From the NCBI GenBank assembly GCA_046718995.1, contig JBDNDR010000001.1, positions 1 to 29,186 on the forward strand: DNA of 29,186 bases, given 5' to 3'. The notes under the pieces were generated by a model. The model had not been told where the DNA came from. It saw nothing but the letters and a program-made list of their open reading frames with translations, and did not search any database. Position numbers and translations under genes: made by a program. Of the stretch, positions 1 through 6,969 are shown one piece after another. The stretch is from Fimbriimonadales bacterium (GTDB lineage: Bacteria; Armatimonadota; Fimbriimonadia; Fimbriimonadales; GBS-DC). Position 1 is the first letter of the stretch, and each line of letters opens with the position of its first letter.

Positions 1-546
1 TGCTAATACAGGCACTCTAAGCGGCGTTTCGGCGGAGGGGTTTGCCAGCAAACTCAGTTCCTCAACCAGCGAATCTATAGTGCGCCCCTCAGTCTCCAGC
101 ACCCAGTCAGACTCTTGGTAGAGCGGCTCGCGGGTCTGGGTAATCTGCTGGAGGGCTTCATGGGGTGTGGGTGCATCGCTCAGTAGGGGGCGCGTGCTGG
201 GGTCTTGAATACGGCTGAGAAGCACCTCTGGACTAGCTTTGAGGTAGATGACCCACCCGTGTCGGCGCATCAATCGGCGGTGCTCGGGGTTCAGCACCAT
301 CCCCCCACCCGTCGCCACCACGCTGGGGACAGACTGCTGAGCTATCTCGCGGAGTGCCTCGGTCTCTGCTTGCCGAAAAACTGCTTCCCCGTGCTGAGCG
401 AAAATCTCGGCGATGGGCTTTCCGAACTGGCGCTCAATGTGGGCATCGGTGTCGTAGAACGGGCGGTTCAACCGCTGGGCAAGAACCTGACCCAGCGTGC
501 TCTTACCCGACGCCATATTCCCAACGAGAAAGAGATGTCGTGTCAT
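1..546 (-). CDS. aroK: Shikimate kinase, 3' end outside the window (possible AroK-AroB fusion)
   Basis: Hand translation from ATG at 546: MTRHLFLVGNMASGKSTLG (Walker A), FYDTD, GEAVFRQAE, VVATGGG, TRPLL, REPLY. No stop before base 1, so the ORF track missed it. Confidence 0.92.
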   Translation of the reverse strand, partial: MTRHLFLVGNMASGKSTLGQVLAQRLNRPFYDTDAHIERQFGKPIAEIFAQHGEAVFRQAETEALREIAQQSVPSVVATGGGMVLNPEHRRLMRRHGWVIYLKASPEVLLSRIQDPSTRPLLSDAPTPHEALQQITQTREPLYQESDWVLETEGRTIDSLVEELSLLANPSAETPLRVPVLA

Positions 547-554
547 AGTCAAAA

Positions 555-583
555 CCTGCAGGGGCAAATGTTGCCCCTGCAGG
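555..583 (-). terminator. Perfect 13-bp stem hairpin followed by TTTT on the minus strand, between the secretin gene and aroK
   Basis: CCTGCAGGGGCAA-atg-TTGCCCCTGCAGG; AAAA at 551-554. Confidence 0.7.
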
Positions 584-608
584 AAAGGTATCACGGAGCG
601 CCTCAGCC

Positions 609-2252
609 TTAGGGAGCCGTGCCCGTGCCTAAGCCCTCATCCTCGTCCAATACAGTCGCCGTGACGAAGATGAGCAGTTCGTTCTCCACAACCGAGCGGT
701 CCTTGGTGCGGAAGAACTGACCAATCACAGGCAGGTCACCCAACAGGGGCACCTTCGAGACAAGGTTATTATCGCTGCGCGTGACCAAGCCACCGATGAC
801 GATGGTCTCACCGTTCTTAATGCGTCGCACAGTGAAGACGAACTGGGTGTCAAATCGGGGTAGGTCTCGGGTACCCACACGCACGCGCCCAACCGTAGAG
901 ACCTGCGGGAAGAGCGAGAGTGTGATGGTGCCGTCGGCGTTGATACGCGGTGTGACGGTCAACTGGGTCGGCACAGGAATCGGAACAGGCTGGGTGAAGG
1001 TCGTGGGCTGACCGTTCGCGTTGAACACGACAAACTGCTGCTCGATATAGTCGGTCGTAGAGAACACGACGGTCGCCGGGCTGTTGTTCTGGGTGGTGAC
1101 AATCGGAGCGTTCACCACGCGCCCACGCCCTTGGCTCAAGAGCGTGCGCAGGTTCGCCACAAGGTTGCCCGTCGCATAGTTGACGAACACCGGCGCCGTG
1201 TTGTCAGCGAACCCAGAAGCACCCGTCTGTAGATTCACACGCGCCAGGTTCCAGTCAATACCGAACTTCTCGGCATCGTTTCGGCTCACCGTAACGAACT
1301 CAGCGCGAATGAGCACCTGCTTCGGAGCGACATCCAGGAAGCGCAGGATTCGGCGAATGTACTCAATCGCTTCGGGCGTGCCGCGCACAATCAGCGAGTT
1401 GTCAATATCGTTGGCTACAATCCCATCCAACCCATCGGGCTGGAAGATACCAACCGCTTGACCACCTTGACCAAGTCCGCCCCCGATGCCTCCACCAGGC
1501 TGACCACCACCGAAACCACCGCCGGGCTGACCACCACCGAAACCACCGCCGGGCTGACCGAAGCCACCGAGTCCGCCGCCCCCGCGTCCAGCGCGACCTC
1601 CAATCTGACCTTCACTACCATCTTGTGGAGCGGTATAGGGCGTCATATCGGGTGCAGGCGAGGGTGCGCTGTTGAAGGGCACATTACTCCCCGAACCAAG
1701 ATTGTACGGCACGCTCGGGGGCACGGGCACCTGCATACCGGGTGCGCTTTGATAGAGAGTGCGGTTCAGAAAGTCGCGCATCTCCGCGAACGGGTCATCC
1801 GACATCATCTCCGTCTTGATAATCCGCACGATGTCGGAGGGACGACTGTAGCGCAGAGGGATTCGCTCAGTGACCACCACAGGCTTCACCGGTTCGGGTG
1901 CAGGAGTCACCTGAGGCGCAGGGGCGGGTTCAGGCGTTGAGCGCGCTGGACCGATGACATAAACCCCGTTCGCTTCCTTTCGGAAAGTTGCCCCTGCCGA
2001 TTGACAGATGTAGCGAAGCACCTGCTCAAACGGTTTTTGCTCTACCTTGATAAAACTGATGCGCGCATAAGGCTGGTCAGTAGGCTCAAACACAACCTCG
2101 GCTTTGACCTGCTGAGCGATGGCTTTGACCGCCGTAACGAGGTCTGCATCCATCAGATAGATGGAAACAAGATAGTCGTCCGCATAAGCCGTGAGCGCTA
2201 CTACCAGGGTCGCCAAAGTGAGACCGAGTTTTCGTATCATTCCTTTTCTCAT
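609..2252 (-). CDS. pilQ: Outer-membrane secretin (PilQ/GspD family) with a Pro/Gly-rich insert in the N3 domain
   Basis: Signal peptide; N0/STN-like domain; split N3 (ERIPLRYSRPSDI...DNSLIVRGTPEAI); secretin C-domain (PKQVLIRAEFV, LTVTPRIN, GETIVIGGL, KVPLLGDLPVIGQFFR, ELLIFVT); RBS GGAGGAGG. Confidence 0.93.
   Translation of the reverse strand: MRKGMIRKLGLTLATLVVALTAYADDYLVSIYLMDADLVTAVKAIAQQVKAEVVFEPTDQPYARISFIKVEQKPFEQVLRYICQSAGATFRKEANGVYVIGPARSTPEPAPAPQVTPAPEPVKPVVVTERIPLRYSRPSDIVRIIKTEMMSDDPFAEMRDFLNRTLYQSAPGMQVPVPPSVPYNLGSGSNVPFNSAPSPAPDMTPYTAPQDGSEGQIGGRAGRGGGGLGGFGQPGGGFGGGQPGGGFGGGQPGGGIGGGLGQGGQAVGIFQPDGLDGIVANDIDNSLIVRGTPEAIEYIRRILRFLDVAPKQVLIRAEFVTVSRNDAEKFGIDWNLARVNLQTGASGFADNTAPVFVNYATGNLVANLRTLLSQGRGRVVNAPIVTTQNNSPATVVFSTTDYIEQQFVVFNANGQPTTFTQPVPIPVPTQLTVTPRINADGTITLSLFPQVSTVGRVRVGTRDLPRFDTQFVFTVRRIKNGETIVIGGLVTRSDNNLVSKVPLLGDLPVIGQFFRTKDRSVVENELLIFVTATVLDEDEGLGTGTAP
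1498..1559. repeat. Exact 27-bp tandem repeat (about 2.3 copies) encoding GQPGGGFGG in the secretin loop
   Basis: ggctgaccaccaccgaaaccaccgccg at 1498-1524 and 1525-1551, partial third copy from 1552. Confidence 0.9.
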
Positions 2253-2287
2253 TAGACGAGTTCCTCCTCCGTGATACCTGGATATGA

Positions 2288-2309
2288 GGGGCGGTTAGGT
2301 GACCGCCCC
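2288..2309. other. Intergenic 8-bp GC hairpin between the two secretin-family genes (possible mRNA stabiliser or partial terminator)
   Basis: GGGGCGGT-taggtg-ACCGCCCC, no clear U-tract. Confidence 0.45.
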
Positions 2310-2337
2310 GAATTGACAGGTGGTCGTGGAGCGTGGG

Positions 2338-3108
2338 TCAGCGTCCGAAGCCTCCACCGAAGCCGCCTCCGCCAAAACCGCCGCCACCGAAGCCGCCTCC
2401 GCCGAAGCCACCACCGCCTCGGAAGCCACCGCCACCGAAGCCGCCGAAGCCACCACCGCCGAGACCGCCGCCGCCAAAACCGCCGAAACCGCCAAAGCCA
2501 CCGCCGAGACCGCCGCCAAAGCCACCGAAACCACCGCCGAGACCACCAAAGCCACCGCCGAGACCGCCAAAGCCACCGAAGCCACCACCAAGACCGCCAA
2601 AGCCACCGAAGCCACCGCCACCACCGGAACTCAGTTCATACTGAGAGTAGCCCACGATGGAGGCACCCAGCAGATTGGCTATCAGATAGGGGTTCGCATA
2701 GCTGAGCTGGATTTTCTCAGGCAGATTGAGGCGAGGACCCTCCTCCTCAGGAGCGGTCGGTGTCGTGGTCTGCGGAATCTCCTCTGGACGACGGATTGTC
2801 ACATAGTAGACCCCGCTCTCGATGCGATAGGTCAAGTCCAGCTGGCGCAGGATGGCATCCAGCGCAACGGTAAACGGTACATCGGTCAGGGAGACCGTGA
2901 CATTCCCCTGCACATTGGGGTCAAGCGAGTAGTTTGCACCGACGCTGTCAAACAGTTGCTTCAACACAAAGCGAATATCCGCTTGGTCGTACTTGACCGT
3001 GACGCGTCGCTGGGACAAGTCCTGTCCCCCGCCCTGTGCGCTGGCGAGTGCGAGTGTTCCGCACATCAGCACTCCAGCAATCAACAGCCCTACCATTTTC
3101 TTCAACAT
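2338..3108 (-). CDS. Stand-alone secretin N-terminal (STN/N0) protein with a ~95-aa GGFG/GGLG tail and no secretin C-domain
   Basis: Likely ATG at 3108 with RBS GAGGA; signal peptide; VTVKYDQADIRFVLKQL...NVTVSLTDVPFTVALDAIL; EKIQLSYANP parallels the secretin's ERIPLRYSRP; ends in Gly/Phe repeats and TGA. Confidence 0.85.
   Translation of the reverse strand: MLKKMVGLLIAGVLMCGTLALASAQGGGQDLSQRRVTVKYDQADIRFVLKQLFDSVGANYSLDPNVQGNVTVSLTDVPFTVALDAILRQLDLTYRIESGVYYVTIRRPEEIPQTTTPTAPEEEGPRLNLPEKIQLSYANPYLIANLLGASIVGYSQYELSSGGGGGFGGFGGLGGGFGGFGGLGGGFGGLGGGFGGFGGGLGGGFGGFGGFGGGGLGGGGFGGFGGGGFRGGGGFGGGGFGGGGFGGGGFGGGFGR
2341..2627. repeat. Degenerate 9-12-bp tandem repeats (ccgaagccgcc-like) encoding GGF/GGGF/GGL
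   Basis: Visible periodic ccg/cca-aag/aaa-ccg units across about 290 bp. Confidence 0.9.
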
Positions 3109-3155
3109 AGTTGTTTCCTCCACACTGATTGACGATGCAACGCTTGAGGGGTTTC

Positions 3156-3929
3156 CTACAAGCCGGGCGCGGCACCTCTGCCACCGCGTCCACCACCAAC
3201 GCCTCCTGCTCCCGCCGCACCGGGCGCGCTCGGTGCGCCACCGGGGGCACCGGGAGCAAATCCACCAGCCCGTCCACCACCGCCTACCCCACCGGCACTG
3301 GGCGGCTCATAGCGCACGAAGACCTCGCGAGGGTTCCCACGACTGCGTCTCAGAATAGCCCCTTCAGGTGTAATCGCCGCCACACGGAACTCTCCAACGG
3401 TGTCGCCCGGTTGGATTATCTGGGGAATTTCGCCCTCCTGCTCCAGAATGGCTGACACGGTCGTCCCAATCACAATACCCGAGATGCGTCGCCGCGGTTG
3501 AGGTTCAAAAGGCTCTGGGAGCTCCACACGCGGGGGTCTCGGCGGGCTTGCTAACACGAAATAGCGGTTAGGATCGAACGCATCAGCCTGGAGCGCTTCG
3601 TTCTCCTCCGGCAGATAAGCAAACGGGTCTCTGCGCGGTTTGAATGGAACCTGTGCCGTTTGCTGTTGCGCAGGCGGGGGGGTTGCCGAGGACGGCTGTC
3701 CCATCATCGCCGGACCACCCATGGGGCTGGGACCGCCCATCGGAGGTCCACCCATCGGCGCAGGCGGCATACCTCCATCCCGATCCATATCCACATTAGA
3801 CATCGGGGGCGATGTCGTTGCCGTGTCCTGACCACCGCCTCCTCCCATAAACAGGAAGAAGACCGCCAGCACGACTATCACCAGCACAACGACTGCTACA
3901 GCGAGTATCGTCTGCTTCTGTTTATCCAT
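3156..3929 (-). CDS. pilP: PilP/GspC-like inner-membrane accessory protein
   Basis: N-terminal TM; Met/Pro/Gly linker; RISGIVIGTTVSAILE...IIQPGDTVGEFRVAAITPEGAIL resembles the PilP/GspC-HR beta domain; lies between pilO and the secretins. Confidence 0.65.
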   Translation of the reverse strand: MDKQKQTILAVAVVVLVIVVLAVFFLFMGGGGGQDTATTSPPMSNVDMDRDGGMPPAPMGGPPMGGPSPMGGPAMMGQPSSATPPPAQQQTAQVPFKPRRDPFAYLPEENEALQADAFDPNRYFVLASPPRPPRVELPEPFEPQPRRRISGIVIGTTVSAILEQEGEIPQIIQPGDTVGEFRVAAITPEGAILRRSRGNPREVFVRYEPPSAGGVGGGGRAGGFAPGAPGGAPSAPGAAGAGGVGGGRGGRGAAPGL

Positions 3930-3975
3930 CGTTGTTCACTTCCCTTATTCTCGGCACAGGCAGTGATTCCTGCAA

Positions 3976-4719
3976 TTAAATCCCCGGTCCGCCTCTGGGT
4001 GCGCCACCAAATCCCATCGGCGCAGCGGGCATCGGTCCGCCGCCGAACCCACCAGGCGCTCCACCCGCTGCCTGGGGCGAAGAGGGCACTCGTGGGCCGG
4101 GCTGACCACCCGTAATGCGCGGGTAGACAAACACGACCATAGAATAGCTCCCAATCAGGTTCGGACTGGTTCCTTGAATCGATAGCCCATCCACCAACAC
4201 GACCAGATTGGGTATCTCGTTCCACCGACGCACATGGTTCAGCAAGCCTTCAAACGAGGAGGCGCGCACCTGCACCGTGCCTATCGGATAGACCAGCACG
4301 AGCTCAGGAATGGCGTTCGGGTCGCTCGGCGGTCCGGGTAGCGCCACGCTGTAGAGGCGCTCTACCCCTGTCTTGATGGGCCAAGCCTCCAACTTCTTAC
4401 CAATCTCGCGTACCATATCGGGGTACTGCATCCACGCCTTGAGCCGGTCGCTGAGGTCAATCGTGTTCACGGGCATCTTGGTGCGGTCGATCTGCGCCAG
4501 CGCCAGCTCCGCCTCTGCGACCTTCTGCTGTGCCATCTGCACCAGTTGGCGCGCTCGGGGAATGAGTGCCACCTTATTCTCCAGTTGGCTCACATTCTCC
4601 TCGTGATACGCGATGTTCTGGAGGGTGGGGCGAATACCCAGTAGGAAGATCGCCGCCGCAACGACAATCGTCGCCACTAATCCGATAGAGACCTTTGCAA
4701 ACATTGACAAGCTTTTCAT
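3976..4719 (-). CDS. pilO: PilO-like type IV pilus alignment protein
   Basis: N-terminal TM, coiled coil, ferredoxin-like C-domain, operon position. Confidence 0.7.
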   Translation of the reverse strand: MKSLSMFAKVSIGLVATIVVAAAIFLLGIRPTLQNIAYHEENVSQLENKVALIPRARQLVQMAQQKVAEAELALAQIDRTKMPVNTIDLSDRLKAWMQYPDMVREIGKKLEAWPIKTGVERLYSVALPGPPSDPNAIPELVLVYPIGTVQVRASSFEGLLNHVRRWNEIPNLVVLVDGLSIQGTSPNLIGSYSMVVFVYPRITGGQPGPRVPSSPQAAGGAPGGFGGGPMPAAPMGFGGAPRGGPGI

Positions 4720-4731
4720 CGCGCTCCTCCG

Positions 4732-5586
4732 TTAGATGCCCATACCACGACCGCCCATCACGGGTCCGCCACCGCCGCCACCAAAACCACCCAACGACGG
4801 CGCACCGAATCCACCCGCTCCAGCACCGCCCAAGTTCAGCCCAGGAATCGATGCGGGCGGGGATGGCGGACTCACTGGCTCACGCAAGGTGGCAACGACT
4901 TGGAACTGCATCAGCCCTGCAGGCGAACCTTGCGACTGACCCGAACCCCCTCCGGCAAACCCACCCAAACCGGGTGCCGCAGAGGCACCGCCGAAAGAAG
5001 ATAATCCTGCTGCGCTGGGTCCCGAAAGCGCTGCAGGAGGACCACCTCCGAAACCACCTAATCCCGGCAGACCAGCCATTTGGGCGCTACCGCCTCCCGT
5101 CGCATAGCCGGGCATCTGGGTGGTCAGGCTCACCGAACTGAAAAGTGGGCACTGGTACATCGTCTGCAGGTACAACCCAATCTCACGGATGCCTTTCGTA
5201 TAGCCCGAAATCTGCATCTGGTTGCCCTGAGCAATCTGAAGCTGCTCATAGCGCACGCGGGGCGAAGTGTATCGGCTCAGCTGACTGTAGATTTCGGGAT
5301 AACGCAGGTTGTGCTTTTGAACCATCTTTACCCATTCGGTCTTCGCCAAAGTGATTGCCGCAGACTGGATGAGACTGTTGGCTTGGTTGACCAAGCTATC
5401 CACCTGCTGGGCTTGAGCCTCCAACTCGCTCTTGCGTGCCTGGAGTTCACCCAGCCGGCTCTGGGCACTAATCATCCAAAACACCATTCCTGCGTTCACT
5501 ACCAGAAACAGCACCACCAGCAGAGCCAGAATCTGCTTGTTAACCTTACGCTGGCGTACATAATCGGGAACCAGATTCAGTTTCAT
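4732..5586 (-). CDS. pilN: PilN type IV pilus alignment protein
   Basis: N-terminal MKLNLVP matches the INLLP-type PilM-binding motif; TM; coiled coil; ISGY...IGLYLQTM PilN-like core. Confidence 0.82.
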   Translation of the reverse strand: MKLNLVPDYVRQRKVNKQILALLVVLFLVVNAGMVFWMISAQSRLGELQARKSELEAQAQQVDSLVNQANSLIQSAAITLAKTEWVKMVQKHNLRYPEIYSQLSRYTSPRVRYEQLQIAQGNQMQISGYTKGIREIGLYLQTMYQCPLFSSVSLTTQMPGYATGGGSAQMAGLPGLGGFGGGPPAALSGPSAAGLSSFGGASAAPGLGGFAGGGSGQSQGSPAGLMQFQVVATLREPVSPPSPPASIPGLNLGGAGAGGFGAPSLGGFGGGGGGPVMGGRGMGI

Positions 5587-5601
5587 CGCTCAATATCTCC
5601 C

Positions 5602-6969
5602 TCAGAAGCTGGCATGCAAGCCCATCCCAATCGCTACAGGGAACAGGTGAACATTCGCCGCAACCCACTCTGGACCATGGCGTTTCACACTGACCTGAAG
5701 ACCCTTGACTGGGTTCGCCACCATCGCTGGAACACCCAGCGAGTTCGCCATAAACTGGTCTAAACTGGGAATAATCGCTCCGCCCCCTGTCAACAGGATG
5801 AGCGAGACATCCGCATCGGTGTTTCGGCTACGGAAGTACTCAATAGAGCGTCGCACCTCGGCAACCAACTCTTCCAGAATCGGGTAGATGGCTAAAAACA
5901 CCTCCACTTTGCGCGGGTCGCCCACAGGTTGCGTGGCAGGAACCGCAGGCTCCGTCGCAGGGGTTGGCTCTGGCTCGCCCGGCGTTGCGAATGGCGAGGG
6001 TGGAACTTCTTCTTCCTGCGCACCAAAGCTCGTCGGTTCGGCGCTTGGAGTATAAAACGGTGAAGGCTCCTCGCCGGGCACGGAGAAGGGCGAGGGTGCC
6101 CCCGGCATATAGGGCGTGCCCGGTGCCTGCGGAGGCTCTGGGGCTGCAAAGCCCGGCGTATAGAAACCGCCCGTGGGTGCCCCCGGCGTGCTGAACGGGC
6201 TGGGAGTTGCAGTAGGAATCTGGTCCATCAACACCTCAGCCAGCTGAACCTTGAGCTGTTCCGCCTCCGCCTCCGAAACCATCAAGCGCTCGGCAACCGC
6301 GCGCGTGAGCATATCGCCTCCAGTTGGCAAGATTCGCGGGAAGCTGAGAATGCCGTTGTTGTAGATATCAATAGAAGTCGCACTGGCACCCAGATTGATG
6401 ACCGCTACTGCCTTATTCTGCTGGTCGGGCTGAGTGAGCAGGAGGCTTCGCGCCAGCGCCAGCGGTTCCACATCAATCGCATAAGGCTCCAAACCCACCT
6501 TGTCGGCTATATCCACCAGTCCGTCTACAGCGTCTTGCTGAGCGACGGCTAAAATCACTTCCATATTGGGGTCGGTGGGACTGGTGCCGGGGCGATGAAT
6601 GACCTCATAGGCGGACTGAACCCGCGTATCGGCGAACGGGATATTGCGCTGGATTTCCCAATCCATGTGTTGGCGCAGTTCCACCGCGTTCATTCGGGGC
6701 ACTTCCAAAATGCGTACCACCACCGCGTTCTGCCCCGCGAGCGAGAACGCCGCCTGTTTGGTGCTAATCCCCGTTTCAGCGAGCAGTCGCTTAACGGCGG
6801 CAGAAACCGCCTGCTTATCAATAATCCCAGCCGAGTCGACCGCACCTTCTGGCGTCGGGGCGATGCCCAGATTCTGCAAGACGGGTGGGCGCCCCGATCG
6901 CACCTCCGCGACCTTAATGAACCGTGTCCCTATATCAATGCCGACAACTACACCAGGTTGCTTCGCCAT
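5602..6969 (-). CDS. pilM: PilM actin-like type IV pilus assembly protein with a ~100-aa Pro-rich insert
   Basis: VVGIDIGTRFIKVAE, VVVRILEVP, IDVEPLALAR, VINLGASATSI, LPTGGDMLT, ILLTGGGA, FPVAIGMGL. Confidence 0.93.
   Translation of the reverse strand: MAKQPGVVVGIDIGTRFIKVAEVRSGRPPVLQNLGIAPTPEGAVDSAGIIDKQAVSAAVKRLLAETGISTKQAAFSLAGQNAVVVRILEVPRMNAVELRQHMDWEIQRNIPFADTRVQSAYEVIHRPGTSPTDPNMEVILAVAQQDAVDGLVDIADKVGLEPYAIDVEPLALARSLLLTQPDQQNKAVAVINLGASATSIDIYNNGILSFPRILPTGGDMLTRAVAERLMVSEAEAEQLKVQLAEVLMDQIPTATPSPFSTPGAPTGGFYTPGFAAPEPPQAPGTPYMPGAPSPFSVPGEEPSPFYTPSAEPTSFGAQEEEVPPSPFATPGEPEPTPATEPAVPATQPVGDPRKVEVFLAIYPILEELVAEVRRSIEYFRSRNTDADVSLILLTGGGAIIPSLDQFMANSLGVPAMVANPVKGLQVSVKRHGPEWVAANVHLFPVAIGMGLHASF

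What the first reader, a model, noticed from the sequence alone, without database searches (positions are those of the whole stretch)
2338..3108. Barrel-less secretin paralogue ending in a ~95-aa GGFG tail, directly upstream of the true secretin
Seen: own RBS and signal peptide, an STN/N0 domain and the first half of an N3-like element (EKIQLSYANP vs ERIPLRYSRP). It stops at the point where the full secretin carries its Gly-rich loop. A clean stop, an 85-bp gap with a hairpin, and a new RBS and signal peptide for the next gene argue against a frameshifted single gene. Inference: a periplasmic co-assembling subunit, plug or gate of the secretin channel. The Gly/Phe repeats resemble FG-nucleoporin or prion-like low-complexity domains and could form a permeability mesh.
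Basis: partly seen in the sequence, partly recalled or inferred. Interest (0 to 1): 0.72.

Follow-up and report, generated by a model that had tools for sequence, protein, structure and literature searches.

The report
Pore-less PilQ paralogue, glycine-phenylalanine tail
A small exported protein encoded just before the type IV pilus outer-membrane channel gene copies only the channel's front end and ends in a floppy ~95-residue glycine/phenylalanine tail; it is a strongly conserved, apparently undescribed part of the pilus machine across the phylum Armatimonadota, and what the tail does is still inferred.

Summary
On the minus strand, 2338-3108 encodes a 256-aa protein, here called X. It has its own RBS and signal peptide, a secretin-type N0 domain, the first strand and helix of an N1 domain, and a 95-aa Gly/Phe tail. 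It stops where the downstream secretin (609-2252) carries a disordered Gly-rich loop.

- dN/dS is 0.04 for both domain and tail.
- No fused form was seen.
- The order pilM-N-O-P-X-secretin holds in 66 of 101 Armatimonadota loci. Another 15 break at a contig end, and 20 are stand-alone paralogues.
- Families that the profile missed still carry a divergent X.

Across 167 relatives the tail keeps its properties, not its sequence: about 88 aa, 63% Gly, F/Y/W/M "stickers", almost no acidic residues, and an Arg near the C-terminus.

X is best read as an accessory periplasmic subunit of the pilus secretin/alignment complex. Docking on the PilP-like protein has only weak modelling support (0.40 against 0.00 for controls). 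The gate or FG-mesh idea is untested.

This scan has already noted the same family in at least six other genomes. I found no paper that describes it.

The parts
2338..3108 (-). Gene X: 256-aa pore-less secretin N-terminal paralogue (P0001), stop codon included
   Evidence: ORF and translation. 82 homologue clusters share the architecture. dN/dS is 0.041 against the orthologue in L036.
3117..3121 (-). Shine-Dalgarno GGAGG, 8 nt upstream of the ATG at 3108
   Evidence: Read directly from the sequence.
3034..3108 (-). Signal peptide (aa 1-25), SPase I site ASA|Q; not a lipobox
   Evidence: Hydrophobic helix 3-25 in the AF2 model. The AxA-Q site is conserved and the Cys is not.
2791..3012 (-). Secretin-type N0 (STN) domain, aa 33-106
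   Evidence: Pfam STN and GspD N0, TIGR02515 PilQ. AF2 pLDDT >90. Foldseek match to 4ar0 PilQ N0, E=4e-6. PDB profile hit to 4ar0, E=9e-11.
2719..2790 (-). Pro/Thr/Glu-rich linker, aa 107-130
   Evidence: Low pLDDT. Variable in the family alignment.
2626..2718 (-). First half of an N1 (Secretin_N) domain, beta1-alpha1, plus a short conserved Y-x-Q-Y-E segment; aa 131-161
   Evidence: BLASTP against the secretin. Profile alignment to the N0-N1 region of solved PilQ. Secretin AF2 model: beta1 127-132, alpha1 138-148. In the monomer model of X only helix 140-146 is predicted.
2341..2625 (-). Gly/Phe low-complexity tail, aa 162-256, (G2-5-F/L)n, ending GGGFGR
   Evidence: Composition. pLDDT <50. 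Tail dN/dS 0.036. DNA repeats are imperfect, 64-84% matches. Properties are conserved in 167 relatives.
2253..2337 (-). 85-nt intergenic spacer with an 8-bp GC hairpin (2288-2309, no U-tract) and the secretin's GGAGGAGG RBS (2263-2270)
   Evidence: MFE -34.7 kcal/mol, z=-2.35; no terminator-like site.
609..2252 (-). Type IV pilus secretin (P0002, 547 aa): own signal peptide, N0, N1 split by a disordered Gly-rich loop, Secretin domain
   Evidence: Pfam Secretin E=3.7e-35; Secretin_N spans residues 128-312. AF2 model.
3156..3929 (-). PilP/PilW-like protein (P0003): N-terminal membrane anchor, RDPF motif, HR-type beta domain, Gly-rich tail. Candidate docking partner of X.
   Evidence: No Pfam hit. 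Conserved RxDPF motif and HR-like block in alignments A4/A5. Its position matches pilP, and pilW in Thermus (PMC13039148). Complex model gives weak support.
3976..6969 (-). pilO-like (3976-4719), pilN-like (4732-5586) and pilM (5602-6969): the upstream part of the same operon
   Evidence: PilM_2 E=3e-47; PilN weak. The order is conserved across the phylum.

Best explanation
X is a periplasmic accessory subunit of the Armatimonadota type IVa pilus machine. It arose by an ancient partial duplication of the secretin's 5' end: N0, the first beta-alpha of N1, and the Gly-rich N1 loop.

Shown:
- It is exported (signal peptide) and has a secretin-type N0 fold.
- It is translated from its own RBS inside the pilMNOP-X-Q operon.
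- It is kept under strong purifying selection, tail included.

Inferred:
- The N0 domain docks X into the machine. It would bind the HR domain of the PilP-like protein, as secretin N0 domains bind PilP or GspC, and/or stack as an extra ring under the secretin's own N-domains.
- This places roughly a dozen uncharged Gly/aromatic tails beside the homologous Gly-rich loops of the secretin N1 ring.
- There the tails act as a disordered, self-associating (sticker-spacer) cushion in or around the periplasmic vestibule. That cushion could be a flexible seal or sleeve around the pilus, or an elastic filler.
- The conserved C-terminal Arg and the frequent terminal aromatic residue may be a short docking motif.
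For: Architecture:
- N0 domain shown.
- Homology to the secretin N-terminus up to the loop position shown.

Conservation and selection:
- 82 close clusters, all about 250 aa with a GGFG tail ending GGGFGR.
- dN/dS against a relative with dS about 1.4 is 0.044 for the N-terminal domain and 0.036 for the tail. The other pil genes give 0.04-0.09.
- Profile hits in 181 of 201 Armatimonadota genomes, nearly all the best ones in open frames of 200-340 aa.

Synteny:
- 66 of 101 loci have X directly upstream of a secretin, 60 of them with the PilP-like gene directly upstream of X. In 15 more the contig ends in or just after X.
- The order also holds at 29% identity (L037).
- Families without a profile hit still have a divergent X in that position.

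Tail:
- In 167 non-redundant proteins the median length is 88 aa (IQR 74-93), with 63% Gly and 25% F/Y/W/M/L/I/V.
- There are 0.14 acidic residues per tail, and an R or K within the last five residues in 150 of 167.
- The X tail is aromatic-rich (35-40% of non-Gly residues) and Pro-poor (2%). The PilN/O/P tails are Gly/Pro type, and the secretin loop is intermediate.

Docking: X 26-162 with PilP-like 95-212 scored ipSAE 0.40 (runs 0.48, 0.40, 0.40) against 0.00 for the best of three controls. The verdict was 'weak support'. The runs agreed in at least 91% of contacts and the partner pLDDT was at least 61. That mark was reached by 58 of 80 solved complexes and 2 of 110 mismatches, but scores of 0.60 or below are more often wrong than right unless the guess was likely beforehand.

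Precedent: stand-alone N0-fold subunits of outer-membrane complexes (DotD, Xanthomonas VirB7) appear among the fold matches.
Against: - There is no direct evidence of binding. The only complex test is weak, and N0-HR is a textbook pair that can pass from memory.
- 20 of 101 loci are stand-alone paralogues away from any pil gene. Armatimonadota also encode many multi-STN proteins without Gly tails. The domain is therefore not exclusive to the pilus machine.
- The half-N1 is not predicted to fold in the monomer, and the tail is unmodelled. Whether the tail faces the lumen, the outside of the ring, the peptidoglycan or the outer membrane is unknown.
- The tail-to-loop compositional correlation is modest (rho about 0.4) and not corrected for phylogeny.
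- In Thermus, Gly/Pro-rich segments of PilW are read as plain flexible linkers across a wide periplasm (PMC13039148). That simpler reading could apply here.
Confidence: 0.5

Rival explanations
1. X docks in the machine as in the best explanation, but the tail is only an entropic spacer or elastic tether with no sealing or gating role. It would let the machine span or adapt to a wide or variable periplasm, or tie the N0 ring to the peptidoglycan or outer membrane through its C-terminal Arg/aromatic end.
For: All periplasmic components (PilN, PilO, PilP-like and the secretin loop) carry Gly-rich segments across the phylum: 40-57 of 65 loci each. In Thermus, Gly/Pro-rich PilW is interpreted as a flexible connector across a ~70-nm periplasm (PMC13039148). 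The tail length is constrained (IQR 74-93 aa) and the C-terminus has a conserved basic/aromatic end.
Against: The X tail is compositionally unlike the Gly/Pro linkers: 2% Pro against 23-28%, and 35-40% aromatic among non-Gly residues against 6-11%. A pure spacer needs no conserved hydrophobic stickers. A free C-terminal tail on a soluble protein tethers nothing unless its end binds something, and that has not been shown.
Confidence: 0.25
2. X is a transient assembly factor (a pilotin- or chaperone-like scaffold). It would template or protect the secretin's N-domains, or escort protomers to the outer membrane, and would not be part of the finished machine.
For: It is adjacent to and co-oriented with the secretin. 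No recognisable pilotin lies in the operon. In Thermus the neighbouring PilW is needed for PilQ stability.
Against: Known pilotins are small lipoproteins that bind the secretin C-terminus. X has no conserved lipobox Cys and mimics the N-terminus instead. Nothing suggests a chaperone fold.
Confidence: 0.1
3. X is a regulatory decoy. Its N0 domain competes with the secretin's N0 for the PilP-like HR domain and so tunes the coupling between the inner-membrane platform and the outer-membrane channel.
For: X's N0 is closer to canonical PilQ N0 than the secretin's own N0 is: STN E=4.8e-6 against 0.1, and TIGR02515 N-terminal match E=8e-11. The X/PilP-like model gives weak support.
Against: Constitutive co-transcription in the same operon with a strong RBS and phylum-wide retention fit a structural part better than a competitor. 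A decoy would not need a conserved 90-aa tail.
Confidence: 0.07
4. X is a general periplasmic STN-domain adaptor with no specific pilus role, and its place in the operon is a historical accident.
For: There are stand-alone paralogues in 20 of 101 loci, abundant multi-STN proteins, and one tandem-STN protein next to an anti-sigma-like gene (L004).
Against: The pilP-X-secretin order is kept down to 29% identity and in every pil operon inspected, including the families the profile missed. Genomes with stand-alone copies also keep an operon copy.
Confidence: 0.05
5. X is a decaying partial duplicate or a frameshifted fragment of the secretin and has no function.
For: It is truncated in the middle of a domain, which at first sight looks like debris.
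Against: dN/dS is 0.04 in both domain and tail at dS about 1.4. It has its own RBS and signal peptide. The downstream secretin is complete with its own N0. No fused form was seen in 66 loci or among the 150 best representatives. Distribution is phylum-wide.
Confidence: 0.01

Closest known systems
N-terminal periplasmic module (N0 plus start of N1) of type IVa pilus secretins PilQ/HofQ (N. meningitidis 4ar0/4av2, P. aeruginosa 6ve2, V. cholerae 6w6m)
   Same: Same N0 fold and detectable sequence homology (profile E=9e-11 to 4e-9; Foldseek E=4e-6; 27% identity). The alignment continues into the first beta-alpha of N1. Same operon context, pilMNOP-Q.
   Different: There is no Secretin beta-barrel domain, no second half of N1 and no AMIN domains. 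It is a separate polypeptide with its own signal peptide and ends in a ~95-aa Gly/Phe tail.
Stand-alone N0-fold subunits of outer-membrane complexes: Legionella DotD (3ady; 7mud) and Xanthomonas VirB7 (2l4w, 6gyb)
   Same: Small exported proteins whose globular part is a secretin-N0-like domain flanked by disordered sequence, and which sit as accessory rings in an envelope-spanning machine. They appear among the fold matches.
   Different: They are lipoproteins of type IV secretion systems, not pilus machines. They have no half-N1 and no Gly/aromatic tail. Only the fold is alike: E=9e-5 to 2e-2 with high rmsd, and there was no sequence match.
Thermus thermophilus PilW / PilP-GspC HR proteins (secretin-N0 partners)
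   Same: An extra or atypical Gly-rich periplasmic component encoded between pilO and pilQ in a deep-branching thermophile. It is proposed to link PilQ to PilMNO flexibly (PMC13039148). The window's P0003 is the counterpart of this protein.
   Different: PilW and PilP carry an HR beta-domain and a membrane anchor. X carries the opposite partner domain (N0), is soluble, and its tail is Gly/aromatic, not Gly/Pro.
FG-nucleoporin repeat domains, and Gly/aromatic 'glycine-loop' low-complexity domains (keratin K1/K10 ends, loricrin, plant GGX glycine-rich wall proteins). This comparison is from general knowledge.
   Same: Uncharged, disordered, with regularly spaced aromatic stickers. X would be anchored by a folded domain to a ring-shaped channel scaffold, so many copies would be crowded together.
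   Different: FG-Nups have 10-20-residue hydrophilic spacers and FxFG/GLFG motifs. X has Phe every 3-6 residues with pure Gly spacers, which is closer to GGX or glycine-loop material. No cohesion, selectivity or lumen location has been shown.

Membership tests
Secretin (PF00263; GspD/PilQ/InvG outer-membrane channel) | C-terminal Secretin beta-barrel domain | tested here: not met
   No Secretin hit at E<=1, and the protein ends at residue 256 after the Gly tail. A phmmer search with the secretin domain finds nothing in X-type proteins.
Secretin (PF00263; GspD/PilQ/InvG outer-membrane channel) | N0 domain at the N-terminus of the mature protein | tested here: met
Secretin (PF00263; GspD/PilQ/InvG outer-membrane channel) | At least one complete N1/N3 (Secretin_N, beta-alpha-beta-beta-alpha) ring-building domain | tested here: not met
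   Only beta1-alpha1 is present (aa 131-147, aligned to secretin 128-148). There is no Secretin_N hit, and the Gly tail follows directly.
STN / secretin-N0 domain superfamily (PF07660, PF21305) | Two beta-alpha-beta units forming the N0 fold, recognisable by profile | tested here: met
   AF2 gives E35-44 H45-56 E59-62 E69-78 H79-89 E92-97 E100-105 at pLDDT >90. Foldseek probability is 1.00 to PilQ, XcpQ and GspD N0. The Pfam STN score of 26.7 bits is just under the 28.4 cut-off.
Pilotins (PilF/Tgl, GspS/PulS, MxiM) | Outer-membrane lipoprotein (lipobox Cys) with a TPR or small pilotin fold that binds the secretin C-terminus | tested here: not met
   The Cys in the signal peptide is not conserved, and the cleavage site is AxA|Q. 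The fold is N0.
DotD / VirB7-type N0 lipoproteins | Lipoprotein anchor plus an N0-like domain in a T4SS outer-membrane core complex | tested here: not met
   The N0-like fold is shared, but there is no lipobox, the context is a type IV pilus operon, and there is no sequence match.
FG-nucleoporin-like permeability barrier | FG motifs separated by hydrophilic spacers, anchored inside a channel, forming a cohesive selective phase | tested here: inconclusive
   Phe is regularly spaced (3-6 residues apart) with Gly-only spacers and no charge, so the repeat grammar differs. Location in the lumen, cohesion and selectivity cannot be tested with these tools.
Armatimonadota 'X' family (N0 + half-N1 + Gly/hydrophobic tail; unnamed) | Signal peptide, single N0, beta1-alpha1 of N1, Gly-rich acid-free tail of about 75-95 aa with a basic or aromatic C-terminus; encoded between the pilP-like gene and the secretin | tested here: met
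   P0001 is a typical member.

The most novel reading that the evidence does not exclude
The dozen or so X tails, together with the homologous Gly-rich loops of the secretin N1 ring, form a cohesive Gly/aromatic gel inside the periplasmic vestibule. This would be a bacterial analogue of the nuclear-pore FG barrier. It would seal the open conduit when no pilus is present, and part for the pilus fibre or for incoming DNA.
Probability: 0.12. Interest if true: 0.85.

Novelty: new variant of a known kind. Interest (0 to 1): 0.55.

Why it matters
Type IV pilus machines are among the best-studied envelope nanomachines, yet their parts list comes from a few Proteobacteria, Myxococcus and Thermus. Here a whole phylum carries an extra, strongly selected operon gene. 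It is a detached secretin N0 module with a ~90-residue uncharged Gly/aromatic tail. It sits next to a secretin whose own N1 ring has a matching Gly-rich loop.

If it is a structural subunit, it would be a previously undescribed pilus-machine component. It would also be a natural test case for what low-complexity, sticker-spacer sequences do in the bacterial periplasm: sealing, elasticity or tethering.

There is a practical point as well. Assemblies often break or frameshift in this gene, which is why it is poorly annotated.

Tried and rejected
- **Fused single gene:** none of 66 operon loci, and none of the 150 best representatives, fuses an X-type N-terminus and tail to a Secretin domain. Hits outside Armatimonadota (Acidobacteriota, Planctomycetota and others) are ordinary full-length secretins.
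- **Decaying duplicate:** rejected by dN/dS.
- **Recent slippage expansion of the tail:** the DNA repeats match only 64-84%, and Gly and Phe codons are mixed.
- **Intrinsic terminator between X and the secretin:** there is a hairpin but no U-tract, and none was called.
- **Lipoprotein:** the Cys is not conserved.
- **Collagen-like or continuous GXY register:** sticker spacing is 3,3,4,3,3,4..., then runs of 5. This shifts through all three registers, so no long triple-helix register exists.
Not pursued further.
- **Literature:** four searches found no description of this family.
- **Complex prediction:** it failed twice for machine reasons before it ran. Only one complex job was available, so X with the secretin N-domains and X homo-oligomers were not modelled.
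- **Absence in family f6/f31 genomes:** this was only apparent. They carry a divergent X that the profile missed.

Full report
**What is there**

The window's left 7 kb is one minus-strand operon:
- pilM (5602-6969)
- a pilN-like gene (4732-5586)
- a pilO-like gene (3976-4719)
- a PilP/PilW-like gene (3156-3929)
- the gene in question, here called X (2338-3108)
- a 547-aa secretin (609-2252)
- aroK

X is 256 aa. GGAGG lies 8 nt before its ATG. Its N-terminus is a signal peptide with an AxA|Q cleavage site that relatives conserve. The single Cys is not conserved, so X is a soluble periplasmic protein and not a lipoprotein.

**Domains**

Residues 33-106 are a secretin-type N0 domain. The evidence is:
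- Pfam STN E=4.8e-6, just under the curated cut-off, and GspD N0 E=1e-3.
- The PilQ model TIGR02515 matched over positions 2-109, E=8e-11.
- AF2 pLDDT >90.
- The best fold match is the N0 domain of N. meningitidis PilQ (4ar0, E=4e-6, 27% identity), followed by XcpQ and GspD N0.
- A family profile hits 4ar0 at E=9e-11. It aligns through position ~152 with the N0-N1 region of solved P. aeruginosa and V. cholerae PilQ.

After a Pro/Thr-rich linker, residues 131-147 align with the first strand and helix of the secretin's N1 domain (BLASTP E=7e-6 over 124 residues). An AF2 model of the secretin's first 340 residues shows N0 at 28-102. N1 beta1 is at 127-132 and alpha1 at 138-148. A disordered Gly-rich stretch follows at 182-267, then beta2, beta3 and alpha2 at 275-306.

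The tail (162-256) is (G2-5-F/L)n ending GGGFGR, and it is unmodelled (pLDDT <50).

The 85-nt gap to the secretin holds an 8-bp GC hairpin without a U-tract. It is not a terminator by the scan. The secretin's own GGAGGAGG RBS follows it.

**Is it a live gene?**

None holds.

- Selection. Against an orthologous operon from a related MAG (L036; dS about 1.4), dN/dS is 0.041 for X as a whole. It is 0.044 for the N-terminal part and 0.036 for the tail. The other pil genes give 0.04-0.09.
- Repeats. The tail's DNA repeats match only 64-84%, so the repeat is maintained at the protein level.
- Close relatives. A word-indexed search found 82 clusters, essentially all about 250 aa with the same tail.
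- Phylum range. A profile of the N-terminal 162 residues hit 181 of 201 Armatimonadota genomes, and the best hits lie in open frames of 200-340 aa.
- Missed families. Genomes of the two families without hits (f6, f31) still have pilM and secretins. Between the pilP-like gene and the secretin they carry a divergent protein with a signal peptide, an N0-like domain and a Gly/Phe or Gly/Tyr tail.
- Outside the phylum. In a scan of one genome per species, hits outside Armatimonadota were full-length secretins.

**Synteny**

I inspected 101 Armatimonadota loci. A few are duplicated between the two collections.

| Context | Loci |
|---|---|
| X directly upstream of a secretin (median gap 58 nt) | 66 |
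| ...of which a PilP-like gene is directly upstream of X | 60 |
| Contig ends in or right after X, PilP-like gene upstream | 15 |
| Stand-alone paralogue away from pil genes | 20 |

No fusion was seen. The order persists at 29% identity (L037).

**What is conserved in the tail**

I compared 167 non-redundant complete members.
- Length: median 88 aa, IQR 74-93.
- Composition: 63% Gly. The hydrophobic stickers F/Y/W/M/L/I/V make up about 25%. Phe dominates in 107 proteins, Met in 16, Tyr in 10 and Trp in 3.
- Charge: acidic residues are virtually absent (0.14 per tail), and there are about two Arg.
- C-terminus: an R or K lies within the last five residues in 150 of 167. Typical endings are ...FGR, ...RGF, ...RGY and ...RRW.

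So physicochemical character and length are selected, not sequence.

The same operons carry Gly-rich segments on the secretin loop (57 of 65 loci), PilP-like (47), PilN (45) and PilO (40). These are of a different kind. The PilN/O/P tails are Gly/Pro (23-28% Pro and 6-11% aromatic among non-Gly residues). The X tail is Pro-poor (2%) and aromatic-rich (35-40%). The secretin loop lies in between. X-tail and secretin-loop compositions correlate modestly (rho about 0.4 for aromatics, 0.5 for Asn). This is not corrected for phylogeny, so it is a lead only.

In the window's own genome only 13 ORFs have 30 or more residues in windows of at least 50% Gly. X tops the list, and four of them (X, the secretin, PilN and the X2 paralogue) belong to this cluster.

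**Mechanism**

Shown: X is an exported N0 module with a disordered, uncharged Gly/aromatic tail. It is co-transcribed with the T4aP envelope components and co-inherited with them.

Inferred: the N0 domain docks X into the machine. Secretin N0 domains are the established binding site for the HR domain of PilP and GspC (3oss and 6hcg appear among the fold hits). The upstream protein has the RDPF motif and an HR-like block of that family. It occupies the place of Thermus PilW (PMC13039148).

One complex job was available. X 26-162 with PilP-like 95-212 gave ipSAE 0.40 (runs 0.48, 0.40, 0.40) against 0.00 for the best of three controls. The tool's verdict was 'weak support'. The runs agreed in at least 91% of contacts and the partner pLDDT was at least 61. 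That mark was reached by 58 of 80 solved complexes and 2 of 110 mismatches. Passes at 0.60 or below are more often wrong than right unless likely beforehand, and this is a textbook pair that can pass from memory. I count it as a small push only.

I could not test whether X instead, or also, stacks on the secretin's N-domains. I also could not test whether its orphan beta1-alpha1 caps a neighbour.

For the tail, the composition argues for self-association and not for a mere linker. A seal or sleeve in the vestibule, an elastic filler and a tether all remain open.

**Comparison with what is known**

X is not a secretin: it has no barrel and no complete N1. It is not a pilotin or a DotD/VirB7-type lipoprotein: it has no lipobox. 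It shares with DotD and VirB7 the idea of a stand-alone N0 subunit.

Its tail resembles FG-nucleoporins only loosely, because X has Gly-only spacers and much denser Phe. It is closer to GGX or 'glycine-loop' material. That comparison is from general knowledge and was not tested.

Four literature searches found no description of this family.

Earlier agents of this scan have reported the same family in at least six other genomes, with concordant conclusions. My analysis was done before I read those notes and agrees with them.

**Verdict**

X is a real, phylum-wide, apparently undescribed accessory gene of the Armatimonadota type IV pilus machine, and the role of its tail is open.

Noticed in passing
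L002:1207-1995 (-) = G000 contig C191; also L036:9086-9850: There is a second paralogue, X2 (~255-262 aa, 69% identical to X in the N-terminal 165 aa). It lies downstream of the aroK-aroB gene that follows the secretin. It has N0, beta1-alpha1 and a Gly-rich loop. It then continues into N1 beta2-beta3 (...IIVNDIDNSVIVR) and stops before alpha2. It looks like an intermediate form between X and the secretin. Contig C191 overlaps the window's left end with two amino-acid differences in aroK.
   Followed up: partly
Representatives P0088-P0235; L004:1486-2061 in G000 contig C107: There is a large family of proteins made of 2-7 tandem STN/N0-like domains without Gly tails. In the window's genome one such protein directly follows a zf-HC2 anti-sigma-like membrane protein. 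This suggests STN modules are used as general periplasmic interaction domains in this phylum.
   Followed up: no
P0146, P0147, P0192: Further barrel-less proteins were seen: 3-4 N0 domains plus a complete N1 without a Gly loop, then a ~200-aa C-terminal beta-rich region with no Secretin match.
   Followed up: no
window 3156-5586 (-) and 65 related loci: The PilN-, PilO- and PilP-like proteins all end in Gly/Pro-rich tails across the phylum. In this lineage the PilP-like protein has an uncleaved membrane anchor. Most other Armatimonadota have a lipobox (L-x-G-C) instead.
   Followed up: partly
window 1498-1559: There is an exact 27-bp tandem repeat (2.3 copies, 100% match) inside the secretin's Gly-rich N1 loop (GGFGGGQPG units). 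It is a candidate for length variation by slippage.
   Followed up: no
L068, L069, L023-L025, L030, L031, L034, L035 (family f16): Stand-alone X paralogues with Gly/Trp tails (GGWGGGFNRGGWGGG...) sit next to a sugar-kinase-like gene, away from pil genes. The same genomes also keep an operon copy.
   Followed up: partly
L079, L081, L083, L086, L087, L092, L096, L102, L103, L109 and others; L104:2959-3732: Contigs very often end inside the X tail (15 of 101 loci), and some records carry a frameshifted tail read as RLWRRRLW.... The Gly-codon repeat is an assembly and annotation hazard, and it explains the many 'partial' database entries.
   Followed up: partly
L037:6735-7949: In a distant lineage (X only 29% identical) an additional N0-plus-N1-like protein without a Gly tail lies between the pilO-like genes and X. 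This suggests detached N-domain proteins can be multiplied.
   Followed up: no
window 1-594 (-) with L002 / L036:7242-8864: aroK is fused to aroB (shikimate kinase plus 3-dehydroquinate synthase, 540 aa) directly after the secretin. This is the usual pilQ-aroK-aroB neighbourhood, here as one gene.
   Followed up: no
G000 contigs C319:18330-19925, C24:3347-4315, C3:1833-4052, C246:624-1760: The few other Gly-rich ORFs of this genome include an HlyD-type membrane-fusion protein, a TPM-domain protein, a PKD-domain protein and two proteins with no Pfam match. Apart from ribosomal protein S3, those with a Pfam match look like envelope or exported proteins.
   Followed up: partly
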